A stretch of DNA of 64,000 bases from an uncultured Clostridia bacterium (GCA_944376195.1 CALWBW010000001.1:17043-81042); one strand, 5' to 3'. Positions 7,346 to 11,570 are shown, numbered from the stretch's first letter. Numbers and translations are program-made. Notes: generated by a model not told the origin, from the sequence alone.

Positions 7346-9532
7346 TCAAGTAAAAGATTTCAAATTTCGCAATGTAAAGCGCTCGTCAAGTGATTTCAAA
7401 GGTTTGGGAACGCCGTTTTCACAGAGCAGATATAATTTGTGCAGCGCGCGGGTACAGAGCAGGTAAAGCATACGGGGATCGCTGATATCGGAACAATCGG
7501 CAACTACCGCATCAAATTCCAGTCCTTTTGCCAGAACCGCGGGCAGAAAGACCATACCGGACGGCAATTCCTGCTCCGGATCAGTCAAAAGCGTGGCAGG
7601 AAGGGATACCGCTTCGAAAAGAGACTTCGTGCGCGCGGTGGTAGAGCAGATGATGGCGACCGTTCGGCAGTCTTCCAACACACCGCTATGACAGAGATCA
7701 GTCAGAAGATGCGCGGCTGTCGCACCGGTCAAAACCTCCGGCAGGGGCCCTTTTCGGTCAAAGAAGTCTATTTGATCATCCCCCGACAATCCGGATGCAA
7801 GTGCGCAAATAGGAGCGGTTGAGCGGTAGCTTCTTTCCAGAGAAACGTGGTGACAACCGGGATACAGTGCAAGGAGATCTTCCTCTGTGTTCAATCCAAG
7901 ACCAGGGAAGACAGACTGGCGCGGATCTGCAAGGACAGTAAACGTGGCGTAGGGATAGACTTTTTTCAATATGGCGTGTTGAAATGCCTGATAATCCTGC
8001 GCTTCATCAATTAAAAGTTGCCGTACGGTCAAATTTGGTTCAAAATTGCCAAGTAAAACAGCAAGATAAGAGATACATACGGCATCTTCATAATAAAGCG
8101 AAGTACTTTCCAACGCGGATTTAGTAAGTTGAAGGATTGCTTTTCCATTTTCTAATTTTTTGCAGTAATCCGCAAGAATCTGTTGATAAAGCGGCAGGAG
8201 CGCCAATCCGTTACGCGTATCGATTTCCGCAAGGGTATTCAATACGCTGTCACGGCGGCGGCGAATAAACTCCTCCTCGTATTCATCTTCAAAATAATCG
8301 CCGTCTGAACGCCAGATATCGTTCAAAATTTCTTTTTTATGCAAATCAAAATAATCTTCCAAGAGTGTGCGTGTATAATCTCGCGCATGTTTTAAAACAA
8401 CGTCAAACGGACGTTCCCGCATCATTTCTGCGCAGCGTTTGTCAAAATCTTGTGCGGAGCAGAGTATGGTATCTTCATAGGCAATGGCAGGCATATGGAA
8501 TGTAAAATTTTGAAAATATGCATGCATAAATTCCAGAAAAGAACGAGAGCCTTTAAGCACGATGGATTGCATCCGCAAATCCCCCTGCGGAGCGGAAAGC
8601 ACATATTCCGCCTGTGGGTAGTACTCCTCGAATGTAAATTCCTGCGGCAGAATACGATTGATGATATCGTCAAAAACCGTACAGCGCGCGTCTTCTTCTC
8701 CGAGTTCCGGTAAAATATCTGAAATGTATGAGGAAAACACACCATTGCGAGATATGATTTCAAAATTGTTAGTAGTTAAGCGTCCGCGATTCCGGTAAAG
8801 CAGATAGGCAAAACGATGCAGGCCAACTGATGTTTTCCCGGAACCTGCTGGACCGAAAATGATAAAATCACCCGCTGTTTCATCCCGAATGGCACGGTTT
8901 TGCTCCTGTTGAATGCTTTCAATGATAACTTTAAGTTTTGCTTGTGTATTTTCAGAAAGGGCTTCTCCCAGCGCTTCGTCATGTAAGGAAGCGTCGGCGT
9001 CATACATAAGCACCATTTTTCCGTCGCGGATTTTAAAGCGGCGCTTTAGTGCGACTCTTCCGCGCTCAATACCGTCCGGACTTTGAAACTGCGCGGGACC
9101 GACAGTGCAATCATAAAACATGGATGCAATCGGGGTGCGCCAGTCGTAGATGTAAGGTTCAAATGTTTCTCGATCAAAGAAGGAGTGCGCGCCGACATAG
9201 ACCCGCTCGCGAAAACCGTCGCGGTCGGAAACAAAATCCAAACGGCCGAAGTAGGGAATACGATAAAGAGAAAGCATGTTGCGCAATTCCAAAAGTGCAC
9301 TGCGGTAATCGTCATCTTCCCGGGCAATGTCTGCATCGTAGAGCGTGAGCGAGGCTACATCGTCAAAATCCCGGATGACATGCGTCAATTCATCCCACAT
9401 TTTATAGCCGGATTCTTCGATATTGGATTCGTGCCCGGAAATTTTACGCTCGAGTTCGGCAATCCGTTTTTTTAACTGTGCGCGGACATCCTCTAAATAC
9501 TGATATTCAGCCTTTCGCTCATTTTGATCCAT
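7346..9532 (-). CDS. helD: HelD-like UvrD/Rep superfamily 1 helicase (RNA polymerase-associated helicase IV family)
   Basis: 728 aa with an N-terminal coiled-coil region. Motifs are Walker A FGPAGSGKTSVGLHRFAYLLY, LIDEAQDY, SYRST and a C-terminal KGLEFDAVV. Confidence 0.75.
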   Translation of the reverse strand: MDQNERKAEYQYLEDVRAQLKKRIAELERKISGHESNIEESGYKMWDELTHVIRDFDDVASLTLYDADIAREDDDYRSALLELRNMLSLYRIPYFGRLDFVSDRDGFRERVYVGAHSFFDRETFEPYIYDWRTPIASMFYDCTVGPAQFQSPDGIERGRVALKRRFKIRDGKMVLMYDADASLHDEALGEALSENTQAKLKVIIESIQQEQNRAIRDETAGDFIIFGPAGSGKTSVGLHRFAYLLYRNRGRLTTNNFEIISRNGVFSSYISDILPELGEEDARCTVFDDIINRILPQEFTFEEYYPQAEYVLSAPQGDLRMQSIVLKGSRSFLEFMHAYFQNFTFHMPAIAYEDTILCSAQDFDKRCAEMMRERPFDVVLKHARDYTRTLLEDYFDLHKKEILNDIWRSDGDYFEDEYEEEFIRRRRDSVLNTLAEIDTRNGLALLPLYQQILADYCKKLENGKAILQLTKSALESTSLYYEDAVCISYLAVLLGNFEPNLTVRQLLIDEAQDYQAFQHAILKKVYPYATFTVLADPRQSVFPGLGLNTEEDLLALYPGCHHVSLERSYRSTAPICALASGLSGDDQIDFFDRKGPLPEVLTGATAAHLLTDLCHSGVLEDCRTVAIICSTTARTKSLFEAVSLPATLLTDPEQELPSGMVFLPAVLAKGLEFDAVVADCSDISDPRMLYLLCTRALHKLYLLCENGVPKPLKSLDERFTLRNLKSFT

Positions 9533-9631: not shown

Positions 9632-9717
9632 GCTTTTTTAGGGAATGTTTTGCTGTCACGCCAAGCAAAGTGATAAAAATCAACGGATTGCACGATGGTA
9701 CAATCCGTTGATTTTTT
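9632..9717 (+). ncRNA. Candidate small RNA of about 85 nt, bounded by the orphan promoter and a terminator
   Basis: The predicted start is about 7 nt after the -10. There is an internal hairpin TTGCT...AGCAA, and the unit ends in the 12-bp terminator stem plus T6. This is a prediction only. Confidence 0.3.
9679..9717. terminator. Bidirectional rho-independent terminator (ends the sigma/anti-sigma operon on the minus strand)
   Basis: ATCAACGGATTG / CAATCCGTTGAT perfect 12-bp stem with a 10-nt loop, T6 on the + strand and an A-run giving T5 on the minus strand. Confidence 0.75.
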
Positions 9718-9761: not shown

Positions 9762-10520
9762 TTATTCGTGATTACTTCCGTTTCCATGATGTCCATTTTG
9801 TCCATGTGCAGAGTTTTGTCCGTTTGAAGAATTCTGCGTATGGGAATTTTCTTCTTTTTCAATTCCAGACAGGCTTTCAATCAGATCCCGAATTTCCTGC
9901 ATACTCATATTTTCTACAGCTTCCGGCGTAATAGAAGGATCCAACTCTTGCAAGGCCAAGAAAGCTCTATATTTTCCATGAGATAATCCCAATTCCTCTG
10001 CCGCGTCTTTTTCGGCAGCACCGACGGAATAACAATGGGCGTTCTCGTGCTCGGACGTACAGGATTCCACCTCAGAGAGGAGTCTGTCGCACTGCTGTTT
10101 GTTTTCTCCAACAACTCCAATTGAAAAAGCCTCTCCCTGGGACAAATAACGGTCGGCATTTTCAAGAATTCGCGTTACCGCTTCGTCGCAGGTTAAAAAG
10201 CGTACATCTTGAAGCGCGAGAAGTGCTTCCCCCGCTTCATTATAGGCAGATGTGGAAATTACTCGATCGAATCGGTTAATAGATAATTCTAAAGAAGGAT
10301 TTATATCAATACAAATGGCGGCAGTGGGCGTAAAGTAAATTTGATAGCCGCCAAATCCCAGAATCACGAATAAAATACAGGCAAAAACAGGGACGAGACG
10401 TCGAGAACGCCGGGGGCGAGACCGCTTTTGTATGACTTCAGCGAGGACCGCTTTCGTGTGAGTTTTCAGCGCTTCTTCTGCATGAATAGGTTCAAACGCT
10501 TCTTTGATCCGATTACTCAC
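9762..10520 (-). CDS. Single-pass anti-sigma factor with an extracytoplasmic domain and a His/Asn/Gly-rich C-terminal tail
   Basis: It overlaps the sigma gene by 4 nt. It has a short N-terminal cytoplasmic segment, a basic stretch RSRPRRSRR, the TM span LVPVFACILFVILGFGGYQIYF and the motif IDINPSLELSINRFDRVI. The tail is HTQNSSNGQNSAHGQNGHHGNGSNHE. Confidence 0.7.
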   Translation of the reverse strand: MSNRIKEAFEPIHAEEALKTHTKAVLAEVIQKRSRPRRSRRLVPVFACILFVILGFGGYQIYFTPTAAICIDINPSLELSINRFDRVISTSAYNEAGEALLALQDVRFLTCDEAVTRILENADRYLSQGEAFSIGVVGENKQQCDRLLSEVESCTSEHENAHCYSVGAAEKDAAEELGLSHGKYRAFLALQELDPSITPEAVENMSMQEIRDLIESLSGIEKEENSHTQNSSNGQNSAHGQNGHHGNGSNHE

Positions 10521-10996
10521 AGATCCTCACCCCCCAATTTTTCTTTTAGTAGTTGCTTTGCGCGTGAAAGAAGCGTATAGACTGTATTGACATTTTTACC
10601 GAGAATTTGACTGATTTGAGGTGCTGTATATTCCTCATAGTAGTATAAGTATACTACATCTTTGTATTTGGGGGGGAGCGATAACACAGCGTCCAGGACT
10701 TCTCGATTTTCAGGAAAGCTCTGGTCCGGCTGCTCGGCAATTGTTTCAAATGACACTGTATGGCTACGGAAAAAACTTTTGAGCAGATCTTTGCAGGCGT
10801 TTATCGTCACACGAATGATCCAGGCTTTTTCGTGTTCGGCGCTTTCAAAAGGAACGGAACGAAGGACATATTTCAAAAAAACAGTTTGAAATATGTCCTC
10901 GGTATCAGAAAGATTTTTTAAATGTACCATGCAAATACGGCGAACGGTGTCCGCATATCGCTCGATTGCCTGATTAACCTCTTCTTCGTTCCGCAT
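10517..10996 (-). CDS. ECF-type sigma-70 family RNA polymerase sigma factor
   Basis: 159 aa with region 2 (DIFQTVFLKYV...EKAWIIRVTINACKDLL) and region 4 (YKDVVYLYYYEEYTAPQISQILGKNVNTVYTLLSRAKQLLKE). Confidence 0.85.
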   Translation of the reverse strand: MRNEEEVNQAIERYADTVRRICMVHLKNLSDTEDIFQTVFLKYVLRSVPFESAEHEKAWIIRVTINACKDLLKSFFRSHTVSFETIAEQPDQSFPENREVLDAVLSLPPKYKDVVYLYYYEEYTAPQISQILGKNVNTVYTLLSRAKQLLKEKLGGEDL

Positions 10997-11010
10997 AATA
11001 GCTCCATCCG

Positions 11011-11289
11011 TTAATTGTGATGTCCGTGTCCAGAACTATGACCTTTTCCCTGTCCGTGGCCGCTTCCATGATGTAACTGTACACGGGAAGCATCGCAGAC
11101 GCCGTCACCGTCCTGATCAAAGTAGGCGTGGCAGTAAGAAGCGTCGCAGACGCTGTCGCCATTCTGATCAAAGTAGACATAACAATGCGTGGTATCGCAG
11201 GCGCGGCCCCTGGAGCCGGCTGCCAATACACTTGCTGCACCAACCGTTAAAAGAACAGCGGTGATCAGAAATACAATTAGTTTTTTCAT
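11011..11289 (-). CDS. Small secreted protein with two tandem Cys/Asp repeats and a His-Gly-rich tail
   Basis: RBS GGAGGAAC lies upstream. The signal peptide is MKKLIVFLITAVLLTVGAASVLAA. The 17-aa repeats are HCYVYFDQNGDSVCDAS / YCHAYFDQDGDGVCDAS, and the tail is HHGSGHGQGKGHSSGHGHHN. It is the first gene of the sigma operon. Confidence 0.7.
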   Translation of the reverse strand: MKKLIVFLITAVLLTVGAASVLAAGSRGRACDTTHCYVYFDQNGDSVCDASYCHAYFDQDGDGVCDASRVQLHHGSGHGQGKGHSSGHGHHN

Positions 11290-11337
11290 TTTCAGTTCCT
11301 CCTAGTTTGTTGATTCCTCATTTCTGATTTCACTAGG

Positions 11338-11366
11338 AATACGACTGAGAAAGAAGAATCCATTCA
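11338..11366 (-). promoter_or_regulatory. Candidate ECF-type promoter upstream of the small protein / sigma / anti-sigma operon
   Basis: On the minus strand: TGAATG (11366-11361), 17 nt, CGTATT (11343-11338). This loosely resembles Bacillus ECF promoters (TGAAAC-N16-CGTATA), and the match is imperfect. Confidence 0.25.
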
Positions 11367-11570
11367 TCATTGAAAAATAATTTTCATGAAAAGCATTTGA
11401 AAACGCATTGTGTTTTTACGAATGCTTTCACTCATTGTAGCATGTTTTGTGCAAAATTAGAAGGGAAATTTGATTTGGACGTTAAAATGTCGCATGTTTT
11501 GGTGGAAATCTGTCTGTAGTTGTGATAAAATACGGAAAGCTTATTCTGTGGGGAAGAGGAGGTATGATCG

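What the first reader, a model, noticed from the sequence alone, without database searches (positions are those of the whole stretch)
9762..11366. ECF sigma/anti-sigma operon led by a secreted His-rich protein, with matching His-rich tails on two extracytoplasmic partners
Three tightly linked minus-strand genes form one unit: a 92-aa secreted protein, then after 14 nt an ECF sigma, then with a 4-nt overlap a single-pass anti-sigma. The unit ends at the terminator at 9679-9717. A loosely ECF-like promoter (TGAATG-N17-CGTATT) precedes it.

The small protein and the extracytoplasmic C-terminus of the anti-sigma both end in His/Gly/Asn-rich tails (HHGSGHGQGKGHSSGHGHHN and HTQNSSNGQNSAHGQNGHHGNGSNHE). 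That points to shared metal binding outside the cell. The layout recalls periplasmic-sensor ECF systems such as CnrYXH, but the small protein's sequence is unlike CnrX. I infer a metal-responsive or envelope-responsive three-component ECF switch in which the secreted protein acts as co-sensor or as the main regulon product. I know of no characterised equivalent.
Basis: partly seen in the sequence, partly recalled or inferred. Interest (0 to 1): 0.62.

Follow-up and report, generated by a model that had tools for sequence, protein, structure and literature searches.

The report
ECF sigma operon with self-cleaving sensor
This is a real three-gene switch, common in gut Clostridia, in which a sigma factor is held at the membrane by an RsgI-type self-cleaving sensor protein and appears mainly to switch on a small, uncharacterised secreted protein that probably binds calcium or another metal.

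Summary

- **Anti-sigma.** It is not CnrY/CnrX-like. Its ectodomain is an RsgI-type SEAL domain (Pfam RsgI_M; PDB profile E 2e-16; AF2 fold match). It carries the invariant Asn74-Pro75 self-cleavage motif, followed by a ~35-residue disordered tail. Its partner is an ECF sigma, not SigI.
- **Gly/His/Asn/Gln tail.** This is a trait of the whole anti-sigma family.
- **Small protein.** It belongs to an unannotated family of more than 4,000 small secreted proteins.
- **Conservation.** The triad is present in 59 of 62 related genome loci. It sits behind a nearly invariant promoter, TGAATGGATT-N12-TCGTATTA, which alone retrieves such operons from metagenomes. No other neighbouring gene is conserved.
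- **Tail matching.** His content covaries between partner tails (rho 0.53), and cognate tails share slightly more k-mers than shuffled pairs.

Likely mechanism: constitutive autocleavage, signal-dependent loss of the ectodomain through the tail, site-2 proteolysis, release of sigma, and auto-induction of the secreted protein. Metal sensing is plausible but untested. I rate it a new variant of a known kind.

The parts
11373..11384 (-). A/T-rich UP-like tract (AAAATTATTTTT) just upstream of the -35 element
   Evidence: The same position carries the consensus AAAAATTTTT (about 1 bit per position) in 64 related loci. Sequence read.
11337..11366 (-). Family-specific ECF-type promoter: -35 TGAATGGATT (11366-11357), a 12-nt spacer, and -10 TCGTATT (11344-11338)
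   Evidence: The consensus TGAATGGATT-N12-TCGTATTA has invariant spacing in 64 of 64 loci. It occurs once in the window. Used alone as a probe, it retrieves small-gene/sigma/anti-sigma operons from metagenomes.
11328..11332 (-). Conserved TGAA(G/A) box 6 nt after the -10 element, probably the transcription start or leader region
   Evidence: 1.6-1.9 bits per position across 64 loci. Its function is unknown.
11011..11289 (-). Gene 1: 92-aa secreted protein with an AGGAGG Shine-Dalgarno sequence at 11303-11298
   Evidence: ORF found. 101 distant relatives by exhaustive HMMER and 4,019 by profile search. No Pfam or NCBIfam family. Lies directly upstream of sigma in 59 of 62 related loci.
11221..11289 (-). 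Signal peptide, residues 1-23 (MKKLIVFLITAVLLTVGAASVLA|AG)
   Evidence: This is the only confident helix in the AF2 model, pLDDT 85-93. The family consensus is ...AFA|AG.
11137..11187 (-). Repeat unit 1, residues 35-51: HCYVYFDQNGDSVCDAS (C-x4-D-x-N-x-D-S-x-C-D)
   Evidence: D41, C48 and D49 are invariant in a 40-sequence alignment.
11086..11136 (-). Repeat unit 2, residues 52-68: YCHAYFDQDGDGVCDAS (C-x4-D-x-D-x-D-G-x-C-D)
   Evidence: D58, D62, C65 and D66 are invariant. There is a weak EF-hand hit at residues 56-69. A strain variant carries one extra 51-nt unit at this point.
11014..11085 (-). His/Gly-rich C-terminal tail of the small protein, residues 69-92
   Evidence: pLDDT is about 50. 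It has the highest His fraction among 47 family tails. It shares HHG, GHH and HGQ tripeptides with the anti-sigma tail.
10517..10996 (-). Gene 2: ECF (group IV) sigma factor, 159 aa
   Evidence: Sigma70_r2 E 1.7e-8 and Sigma70_r4_2 E 5.8e-15. TIGR02937 scores above its cut-off. The closest solved structure is B. subtilis SigW at E 2.8e-10, and no chain named SigI appears among the 13 hits at E <= 1e-3.
9762..10520 (-). Gene 3: single-pass anti-sigma factor, 252 aa, GTG start overlapping the sigma stop codon
   Evidence: There are 245 homologues at E <= 1e-3, of which the 120 listed are 237-322 aa.
10398..10520 (-). Cytoplasmic N-terminal region, residues 1-41: two short helices and a basic stretch, presumed to bind sigma
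   Evidence: AF2 predicts helices at residues 3-9 and 16-33. The consensus is MxxRIKEAFDxIHAEExLK. There is no RsgI_N or zf-HC2 Pfam hit at E <= 1. Sigma binding is inferred.
10332..10397 (-). Transmembrane helix, residues 42-63
   Evidence: The AF2 helix spans residues 38-63 with pLDDT above 90. The hydrophobic segment is visible.
9870..10322 (-). SEAL (RsgI juxtamembrane/periplasmic) domain, residues 67-217
   Evidence: Pfam RsgI_M E 2.5e-21. The profile hits PDB entries 8hep, 8u9o, 8her, 8t9n, 8heq and 8hdj at E 2e-16 to 4e-8. The AF2 model has pLDDT mostly 84-97, with one 10-residue block at 74, and its ten best PDB fold matches are all RsgI SEAL domains, target-normalised TM-score 0.62-0.79.
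10293..10301 (-). Asn74-Pro75-Ser76: predicted autoproteolysis site, cleaving between N74 and P75
   Evidence: Invariant in 31 of 31 aligned homologues. Chain B of the solved, cleaved RsgI domains begins exactly at this Pro. Cleavage was mapped at the N|P bond, N97|P98 in the numbering of Brogan et al. (PMC10556640). Cleavage in this protein is inferred.
9765..9869 (-). Disordered Gly/His/Asn/Gln-rich extracellular tail, residues 218-252
   Evidence: pLDDT is 46-53. Comparable tails occur in nearly all of 120 homologues, often with a GHHGxG motif.
9675..9716 (-). Intrinsic terminator: a 19-bp stem with flanking A- and U-tracts, so potentially bidirectional
   Evidence: -26.2 kcal/mol, z = -8.69, and 0 of 200 shuffles fold as well.

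Best explanation
The region is a self-contained, self-inducing three-gene envelope-signalling module. A promoter recognised by the operon's own ECF sigma drives, in order, a small secreted protein, the sigma factor and a single-pass anti-sigma factor.

**Resting state.** The anti-sigma holds sigma at the membrane through its short cytoplasmic N-terminus. Outside the cell it carries an RsgI-type SEAL domain that cuts itself constitutively between Asn74 and Pro75. The two pieces stay joined through a shared beta-sheet.

**Regulated step.** The signal causes loss of the outer piece, acting through its roughly 35-residue disordered Gly/His/Asn/Gln tail. The remaining stub is then cut by a site-2 protease (RasP/RseP type). 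Sigma is released and transcribes its own operon.

**Output.** The only non-regulatory product is the small secreted protein. Its mature part consists of two Cys-stapled DxDxDG-type acidic loops and a His/Gly tail. It most likely binds divalent cations (Ca2+-type loops, with Cys and His allowing softer metals) in the wall zone. Through a tail that resembles the sensor's tail, it may feed back on the sensor.

**Shown by sequence, homology or comparison:**
- gene organisation;
- ECF identity of the sigma factor;
- SEAL fold and the NPS motif;
- disordered tail;
- conservation of the triad and of the promoter;
- absence of other conserved neighbours.

**Inferred:**
- autocleavage in this protein;
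- site-2 proteolysis;
- autoregulation;
- cation binding;
- any feedback.

The identity of the signal (metal or ionic state, or wall state) is open.
For: **Architecture.**

**SEAL domain.**
- Pfam E 2.5e-21.
- PDB profile hits with the cleaved chain starting at the invariant Pro.
- AF2 model plus Foldseek: the top 10 matches are all RsgI SEAL domains.
- Published mechanism: PMC10556640 and PMC10328401.
- The tail is disordered and is present across the family. In B. subtilis RsgI the disordered region is required for signalling and tolerates scrambling (PMC9732909).

**Autoregulation.**
- The -35/-10 pair has fixed spacing in 64 of 64 loci, about 45-50 nt before the small gene.
- Its form resembles ECF promoters such as the SigW type, TGAAAC-N16-CGTA. 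That consensus is from general knowledge, not a tool result.

**The small protein as the dedicated output.**
- Triad present in 59 of 62 loci.
- The promoter occurs once in 64 kb.
- No conserved neighbour: the best cluster is a generic ABC ATPase in 8 of 77 loci.
- A promoter-only metagenome probe finds a small repeat-protein gene within 130 nt in 58 of 70 usable hits.
- Orphan small genes carry the same promoter (L098, L122).

**Cation binding.**
- The invariant positions are the Asp and Cys residues of the loop.
- There are sub-threshold hits to EF-hand, TSP3_bac, Excalibur and MtsD.
- The Excalibur motif DxDxDGxxCE, with its Cys pair, is unfolded without Ca2+ and folds on binding (PMC5137146 and PMC8391695). 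This matches the low-confidence AF2 model of the mature part.

**Tail relation.**
Against: - No experiment exists for any member of this family.
- The tail is only about 35 residues, far shorter than the long disordered region described for B. subtilis RsgI. It may be unable to sense the wall in the same way.
- The cytoplasmic domain matches no known anti-sigma domain family, so sigma binding is inferred from gene order alone.
- All calcium-motif hits fall below the curated thresholds. Repeat 1 deviates from the motif (DxNxDS).
- The regulon outside the 64-kb window and outside the +/-5 kb flanks was not examined. The small protein may therefore not be the only output.
- The tail-covariation statistics are not corrected for phylogeny.
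- No site-2 protease gene was looked for.
Confidence: 0.7

Rival explanations
1. One reading: a metal-responsive, CnrYXH-like three-component switch. The His-rich tails of the secreted protein and of the anti-sigma bind the same metal (Zn, Ni, Cu or Co). The small protein acts as co-sensor, and metal binding directly switches the anti-sigma.
For: - The small protein is rich in His, Cys and Asp. A GHHGxG motif recurs in anti-sigma tails.
- His fraction covaries between cognate tails: rho 0.53, p 1e-4, against 0.13 with the sigma control.
- Cognate tails share k-mers above shuffled partners.
- The anti-sigma ectodomain has a conserved Cys154/Cys163 pair that the solved RsgI domains lack.
Against: - There is no sequence or predicted-fold similarity to CnrX or CnrY.
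- The ectodomain is a self-cleaving SEAL domain, and its known logic is dissociation rather than allostery.
- Most family members have Gly/Arg/Cys tails with little His. Mean His is 6%, and the window is the extreme case.
- No efflux pump, transporter or metalloregulator is co-conserved.
- His content of the anti-sigma tail also correlates with its own folded body (rho 0.55), so lineage composition contributes.
Confidence: 0.2
2. A cell-wall integrity sensor working exactly like B. subtilis RsgI. The disordered tail probes gaps or changes in the peptidoglycan or teichoic-acid matrix. The small cationic-tailed, Ca-binding protein is a wall-associated repair or stabilising factor. The similarity between tails reflects binding to the same wall polymers.
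For: - SEAL domain followed by a disordered tail, as in RsgI.
- RsgI disordered regions work by composition rather than sequence (PMC9732909).
- Small-protein tails are basic (18% Arg/Lys against 3.5% Asp/Glu) and Gly-rich, like the sensor tails.
- The module is self-contained.
Against: - The tail is short, at about 35 residues.
- It has a semi-conserved motif (GHHGxG), which suggests a specific ligand.
- No peptidoglycan-synthesis or hydrolase genes are linked.
- The sigma is ECF, not SigI.
Confidence: 0.2
3. The secreted protein is an extracellular ligand or autoinducer for its own sensor. It binds the anti-sigma tail or SEAL domain, possibly through a bridging metal, and pulls or strips the ectodomain. 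This gives positive feedback or cell-to-cell signalling.
For: - The small gene is first in the auto-induced operon, and the triad is tightly co-inherited.
- Cognate tails match weakly but significantly.
- Repeat number varies between strains.
Against: - There is no direct evidence of interaction, and no multimer modelling was possible.
- Orphan small genes sit behind the same promoter without a sensor. That fits an output better than a dedicated ligand.
- The repeats are highly similar across distant taxa, so they offer little specificity.
Confidence: 0.1
4. The small Cys-rich cationic protein is an antimicrobial peptide, bacteriocin or RiPP precursor expressed under ECF control.
For: - It is small, secreted and Cys-rich, with a Gly/Arg tail in many relatives.
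- One relative gives a weak hit to a BLB8/JUQZ-1 'ocin' family, E 0.003.
Against: - No immunity, transporter, radical-SAM or other modification gene is co-conserved.
- It has an ordinary Sec signal peptide rather than a leader peptide.
- There are no PADLOC hits.
- The core is acidic.
Confidence: 0.04

Closest known systems
SigI-RsgI signalling (Bacillus subtilis RsgI; Clostridium thermocellum RsgI1-9)
   Same: - A single-pass anti-sigma with a juxtamembrane SEAL domain homologous to the solved RsgI domains (E 2e-16; target-normalised TM-score up to 0.79).
- An invariant Asn-Pro-Ser hairpin at the mapped autocleavage site.
- A disordered extracellular tail after the domain.
- The expected logic is constitutive site-1 autocleavage, regulated dissociation, then site-2 proteolysis.
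   Different: - The partner sigma is ECF-type (r2 plus r4_2, closest to SigW), not SigI.
- The cytoplasmic domain does not match RsgI_N.
- The tail is very short and has no appended carbohydrate-binding or other domain.
- A conserved Cys pair lies in the SEAL domain.
- A small secreted repeat protein is an obligatory first gene, which the RsgI papers read here do not describe for SigI-RsgI loci.
- NCBI names relatives 'anti-sigma-I factor RsgI family protein', which is imprecise.
Classical ECF sigma/anti-sigma pairs controlled by regulated intramembrane proteolysis (e.g. B. subtilis SigW-RsiW)
   Same: - A group IV sigma co-transcribed with a membrane anti-sigma.
- An auto-regulated promoter of the TGAAxx-N16/17-CGTA kind.
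- The closest solved sigma structure is SigW.
   Different: - No zf-HC2 or other known anti-sigma domain.
- Site-1 cleavage is predicted to be autocatalytic through a SEAL domain rather than by a dedicated protease.
- The leading small secreted gene.
   Same: A three-gene ECF unit with a short anti-sigma and a small extracytoplasmic protein. His-rich features hint at metals.
   Different: - No homology of the small protein to CnrX. The mature part is predicted to lack helices and contains DxDxDG repeats.
- The anti-sigma here carries a large SEAL ectodomain.
- The gene order differs.
- The host is a Gram-positive anaerobe.
- No efflux genes are linked.
Extracellular DxDxDG calcium loops: Excalibur (DxDxDGxxCE), thrombospondin type-3 repeats, EF-hand
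   Same: - The repeat core D-x-D-x-D-G-x-C-D has a second Cys five residues upstream, echoing the Excalibur loop and its disulfide pair.
- DADGDG strings of relatives also occur in COMP, a thrombospondin-family protein. That these lie in its type-3 repeats is from general knowledge.
- Weak Pfam and NCBIfam hits.
- An apparently unstructured apo form (PMC5137146).
   Different: - The loop is one residue shorter than Excalibur and ends in Asp, not Glu.
- All hits are below the curated cut-offs.
- No solved relative: best PDB E 0.28.
- Tandem units in an 80-160-aa stand-alone protein with a Gly-rich basic or His tail.
- Genetically tied to an ECF operon.

Membership tests
ECF (group IV) sigma factors | Only sigma regions 2 and 4 are present | tested here: met
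   Sigma70_r2 (residues 11-73) and Sigma70_r4_2 (residues 98-150) in a 159-aa protein.
ECF (group IV) sigma factors | Passes the curated ECF superfamily model | tested here: met
   TIGR02937 scores 77 bits against a cut-off of 42.9. No equivalog-level model is passed. The nearest solved structure is SigW.
ECF (group IV) sigma factors | Co-transcribed cognate anti-sigma and a self-recognised promoter | tested here: inconclusive
   The 4-nt overlap with the membrane protein and the conserved -35/-10 motif upstream fit. Binding and autoregulation are not demonstrable in silico.
SigI/RsgI system | Sigma factor of the SigI type, with a SigI-specific C-terminal domain | tested here: not met
   The sigma has a canonical r4_2 domain and passes the ECF model. 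No chain named SigI is among the 13 PDB hits at E <= 1e-3.
SigI/RsgI system | RsgI_N cytoplasmic anti-sigma domain | tested here: not met
   The only Pfam hits for the 252-aa protein at E <= 1 are RsgI_M and a weak EF-hand_Zip.
SigI/RsgI system / bacterial SEAL domains | Juxtamembrane SEAL (RsgI_M) fold | tested here: met
   PF23750 E 2.5e-21. PDB profile E 2e-16. The ten best Foldseek matches are all RsgI SEAL domains.
SigI/RsgI system / bacterial SEAL domains | Conserved Asn-Pro scissile hairpin | tested here: met
   N74-P75-S76 is invariant in 31 of 31 homologues. It aligns to the first residue of the cleaved chain B in 8hep, 8her, 8heq and 8u9o.
SigI/RsgI system / bacterial SEAL domains | Actual autoproteolysis with the fragments remaining associated | not testable with these tools
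   This needs protein biochemistry: Edman sequencing or mass spectrometry of the purified ectodomain.
SigI/RsgI system / bacterial SEAL domains | Extracytoplasmic disordered region required for signalling | tested here: inconclusive
   A disordered tail exists (pLDDT 46-53) and is family-wide. It is only about 35 residues, and whether it is required is unknown.
SigI/RsgI system / bacterial SEAL domains | Site-2 cleavage by a RasP/RseP protease | not tested
   No search for a site-2 protease gene was made. The genome beyond the 64-kb window is not available.
CnrYXH-type metal sensor | CnrX-like helical periplasmic metal-sensor protein | tested here: not met
   The small protein has no Pfam, NCBIfam or PDB relative of that kind. 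Its mature part is predicted to lack helices.
CnrYXH-type metal sensor | Metal-dependent activation and a linked metal-efflux regulon | tested here: inconclusive
   No efflux or transport gene is conserved next to the triad. Induction cannot be tested in silico.
Excalibur / EF-hand / thrombospondin type-3 calcium-binding motifs | DxDxDG loop with acidic ligands at positions 1, 3 and 5 and a distal acidic ligand | tested here: met
   Repeat 2 reads D58-Q-D60-G-D62-G-V-C65-D66. Repeat 1 deviates (D41-Q-N43-G-D45-S-V-C48-D49). The Asp and Cys positions are invariant in 40 relatives.
Excalibur / EF-hand / thrombospondin type-3 calcium-binding motifs | Passes the curated family model | tested here: not met
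   For the window protein, EF-hand_6 gives E 0.2 and EF-hand_1 gives E 0.56, both far below gathering scores. Among 40 relatives only 2-3 hit EF-hand_1, TSP3_bac or Excalibur, at E 1e-4 to 3e-4.
Excalibur / EF-hand / thrombospondin type-3 calcium-binding motifs | Measured Ca2+ or other metal binding | not testable with these tools
   This needs ITC, NMR or ICP-MS on the mature protein.

The most novel reading that the evidence does not exclude
Tail mimicry closes a homeostatic loop. The disordered Gly/His tail of the SEAL-domain anti-sigma engages an extracellular ligand, either a wall polymer or a bound metal ion. Through that engagement it is pulled off the self-cleaved sensor. The induced small protein is anchored or folded by Ca2+-type loops and carries a look-alike tail. 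That tail competes for the same ligand and shuts the signal off.

This would be a new three-part logic for bacterial mechanosensing or ion sensing. It would extend SEAL-domain signalling from SigI to ECF sigma factors, and it would assign a function to a family of more than 4,000 small secreted proteins in gut Clostridia.
Probability: 0.15. Interest if true: 0.75.

Novelty: new variant of a known kind. Interest (0 to 1): 0.55.

Why it matters
SEAL-domain autoproteolytic signalling has so far been worked out only for SigI-RsgI pairs, in B. subtilis wall stress and C. thermocellum polysaccharide sensing. This locus shows the same sensor module wired to an ordinary ECF sigma. It has a minimal tail and a dedicated small secreted partner.

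The arrangement recurs in hundreds of gut Clostridia (Lachnospiraceae, Oscillospiraceae and relatives), behind an almost invariant promoter. That makes it a compact, genetically tractable system for three questions:
- what force or ligand dissociates a cleaved SEAL domain;
- whether low-complexity tails can act as specific sensors;
- what the large, unannotated family of DxDxDG/Cys repeat proteins does in the Gram-positive wall zone.

If the tails or loops bind metals, the module would also be a new kind of extracellular ion-responsive circuit in abundant gut anaerobes.

Tried and rejected
1. **Word-indexed homologue search of the small protein.** It gave only three near-identical proteins, which suggested an orphan. 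Exhaustive HMMER, synteny and a profile search overturned that.
2. **Tandem Repeats Finder.** It saw no DNA tandem repeat in the small gene. The two units are diverged at the DNA level. A repeat finder failed on strand syntax.
3. **First DNA search pattern for the promoter.** I used the wrong spacer length and it found nothing. A script with the correct spacing found the single site.
4. **PADLOC.** None of the three proteins belongs to a known defence system.
5. **Bacteriocin or RiPP reading.** Rejected because no modification, immunity or export gene is conserved nearby.
6. **CnrX-like sensor.** Rejected for lack of any similarity.
7. **AF2 on the small protein.** The model was low-confidence (mean pLDDT 64, and only the signal peptide is confident), so I ran no fold search on it.
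8. **Literature searches.** Searches for the repeat motif and for 'ECF sigma' plus 'SEAL domain' found nothing relevant.
9. **Asn/Gln covariation between tails.** Discounted, because it is equally strong against the folded body of the anti-sigma.
10. **Pfam PF27309 (MJ0753_N).** It appears as faint precomputed hits on many relatives but is absent from the local Pfam copy, so I could not evaluate it.


Full report
**1. Observation**

The three minus-strand ORFs are exactly as described: 11289-11011 (92 aa), 10996-10517 (159 aa) and 10520-9762 (252 aa, GTG start). A 14-nt gap separates the first two, and the last two overlap by 4 nt in GTGA.

An AGGAGG Shine-Dalgarno sequence lies 8 nt before the first ATG. 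Both quoted His-rich strings are correct.

The terminator is real. A 19-bp hairpin at 9716-9675 with a U-tract folds at -26.2 kcal/mol, z = -8.7. The simple consensus scanner did not list it on this strand.

**2. Sigma and anti-sigma**

Gene 2 is an ECF sigma.
- It has Sigma70_r2 and Sigma70_r4_2.
- TIGR02937 scores above its cut-off, though no equivalog-level model is passed.
- The closest solved structure is B. subtilis SigW. No chain named SigI is among the PDB hits.

Gene 3 has a short cytoplasmic N-terminus, a basic stretch and one transmembrane helix. Its ectodomain matches Pfam RsgI_M at E 2.5e-21.

A profile of 31 homologues hits the solved periplasmic (SEAL) domains of C. thermocellum RsgI1, 2, 6 and 9 and of B. 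subtilis RsgI at E 2e-16 to 4e-8. The cleaved chain B of those entries begins exactly at the Pro of an Asn-Pro-Ser triplet. That triplet is invariant in the family, as N74-P75-S76.

Published work maps RsgI self-cleavage to this Asn|Pro bond. It shows that the fragments stay together until a signal separates them, after which RasP cuts within the membrane (PMC10556640 and PMC10328401).

An AF2 model has mean pLDDT 82, with the SEAL region mostly 84-97. Its ten best PDB fold matches are all RsgI SEAL domains. Residues from about 223 to 252 are disordered, at pLDDT 46-53.

The pairing is therefore a hybrid: an RsgI-type sensor module joined to an ECF sigma. There is no RsgI_N domain. NCBI labels relatives 'anti-sigma-I factor RsgI family protein', which overstates the relationship.

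**3. The tails**

The Gly/His/Asn/Gln-rich C-terminal tail is not special to this locus. Nearly all of 120 homologues at 40-58% identity end in such a low-complexity stretch, often with GHHGxG.

**4. The small protein**

A word-indexed search found only three near-identical proteins. One of them carries an extra 17-residue unit, an exact 51-nt in-frame insertion. The remaining three nucleotide differences are all synonymous.

It consists of two tandem units, HCYVYFDQNGDSVCDAS and YCHAYFDQDGDGVCDAS, of the form C-x4-D-x-D-x-D-G-x-C-D.

An exhaustive HMMER search of 1.84 billion representatives found 101 relatives at E <= 1e-3. Most are 80-160-aa proteins with three parts:
- a signal peptide;
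- two to six [FY]xDxDGDG[IV]CD units;
- a Gly-rich tail carrying Arg, His and Cys.

A profile search found 4,019 relatives among only 8,000 candidates scored. In a 40-sequence alignment the invariant positions are the loop Asp and Cys residues.

No Pfam or NCBIfam model covers the family. There are only sub-threshold hits to EF-hand, TSP3_bac, Excalibur and MtsD, and NCBI calls members hypothetical. A newer Pfam entry, PF27309 MJ0753_N, gives faint precomputed hits that I could not evaluate. No solved relative exists.

The motif is one residue shorter than the Excalibur loop DxDxDGxxCE. That domain also has a Cys pair, and it is unfolded until Ca2+ binds (PMC5137146 and PMC8391695). The AF2 model of the mature small protein is correspondingly unstructured.

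**5. Conservation of the unit**

Of these, 545 were confirmed and 80 were fetched. They come from Lachnospiraceae, Oscillospiraceae, Ruminococcaceae, Christensenellales-like MAGs, a Peptococcaceae MAG and even an Atopobiaceae MAG.

Among 62 loci with enough upstream sequence (the window included), 59 have a secreted DGDG-repeat gene immediately upstream of sigma. One more has a degenerate version. Nothing else is conserved around the triad: the best neighbour cluster is a generic ABC ATPase in 8 of 77 loci, on either side and either strand.

**6. Promoter**

The consensus TGAATGGATT-N12-TCGTATTA lies about 45-50 nt upstream of the small gene, with identical spacing in 64 of 64 genome loci where it was found. 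It is flanked by an A/T UP-like tract and followed by a conserved TGAAG box. The window copy is at 11366-11337 and is the only one in 64 kb.

Used alone as an 18-base probe against metagenome contigs, it returned at least 120 stretches, of which 80 were fetched.
- Of 70 with more than 500 nt downstream, 58 have a DGDG-repeat ORF within 130 nt.
- Of 43 with more than 1.8 kb downstream, 28 show the full triad.
- A few carry the small gene alone (L098, L122).

The promoter resembles ECF consensus promoters (general knowledge). Its tight link to the operon argues for auto-regulation, with the small protein as the dedicated output.

**7. Do the tails match?**

Across 47 loci the His fraction of the small-protein tail correlates with that of the cognate anti-sigma tail: rho 0.53, p 1e-4. 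The controls are 0.26 for the anti-sigma body and 0.13 for sigma. Asn/Gln covariation is not specific.

Cognate tails share slightly more 2- to 4-mers than shuffled partners: z 2.6, 2.2 and 1.7. These tests are not corrected for phylogeny, so matching is suggestive at best.

The window's small tail is the most His-rich of the set. Typical tails are Gly/Arg/Cys-rich.

**8. Mechanism and rivals**

The best-supported model is an auto-induced ECF module gated by a self-cleaving SEAL sensor. Loss of the ectodomain, mediated by the short disordered tail, would license site-2 proteolysis. The output would be a probably cation-binding secreted protein that may feed back on the sensor.

The nature of the signal is open. 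A ligand or autoinducer role gets about 0.1 and an antimicrobial role about 0.04.

**9. Novelty**

SEAL-domain signalling and ECF operons are both known. What I did not find described is their combination with a conserved small DxDxDG/Cys repeat protein and a family-specific promoter. I rate this a new variant of a known kind, of moderate to good interest.

Noticed in passing
window 11086-11136 versus L001:6001-6330: Strain polymorphism in repeat number. A metagenome variant of the small gene carries exactly one extra 51-nt (17-aa) repeat unit. The only three other nucleotide differences are synonymous.
   Followed up: yes
L085, L086, L087, L209: In some contigs of the same or related strains, the anti-sigma gene is called N-terminally shortened (216, 163 or 220 aa) or the sigma gene is split into two ORFs. 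These are either natural frameshift or loss-of-function variants or assembly errors.
   Followed up: no
L098, L122, L115 (promoter-probe metagenome loci): Small DGDG-repeat genes carry the same promoter but have no sigma/anti-sigma downstream. In L115 the repeat protein is fused to a Lys-rich C-terminal region containing KGYKFKGWY. This suggests extra regulon members acting in trans.
   Followed up: partly
window 11328-11332 and 11373-11384: Beyond the -35 and -10 elements, two further boxes are conserved across 64 loci: an upstream A/T tract (AAAAATTTTT) and a TGAAG box 6 nt after the -10, followed by AAA. Their role (UP element, start site or leader) is unknown.
   Followed up: partly
window 10032-10061 (anti-sigma residues C154 to C163): This SEAL subfamily has a conserved Cys pair in ESCTxxHxNxxCYS. 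C163 is invariant and C154 is at least 90% conserved. The three solved RsgI SEAL sequences shown in the alignment have no Cys at these positions. It may be a disulfide, redox or metal site.
   Followed up: no
window 7346-9532 (-): The gene downstream of the terminator encodes a 728-aa UvrD-like helicase with an N-terminal coiled-coil. It gives only weak GajB-like PADLOC hits (best E 2e-9) and is probably a HelD-type helicase rather than a defence gene.
   Followed up: no
P0127, P0139, P0158, P0163: Larger proteins with a twin-arginine-like signal repeat a CPxGxxNDPYPGxCxxYVDxDGDGICD unit. The DGDG/Cys loop therefore also occurs in a different, possibly redox-related, context.
   Followed up: no
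L079 (Atopobiaceae MAG); P0314 (Actinomycetia MAG), P0326 (Slackia): The triad and the small-protein family also appear in Coriobacteriia and Actinomycetia assemblies. This suggests horizontal spread beyond Clostridia, or binning errors.
   Followed up: no
P0257, P0357 and many relatives: Precomputed annotation lists faint hits to a recent Pfam entry, PF27309 (MJ0753_N). That entry is not in the local Pfam library, so its relation to the repeat could not be assessed.
   Followed up: partly
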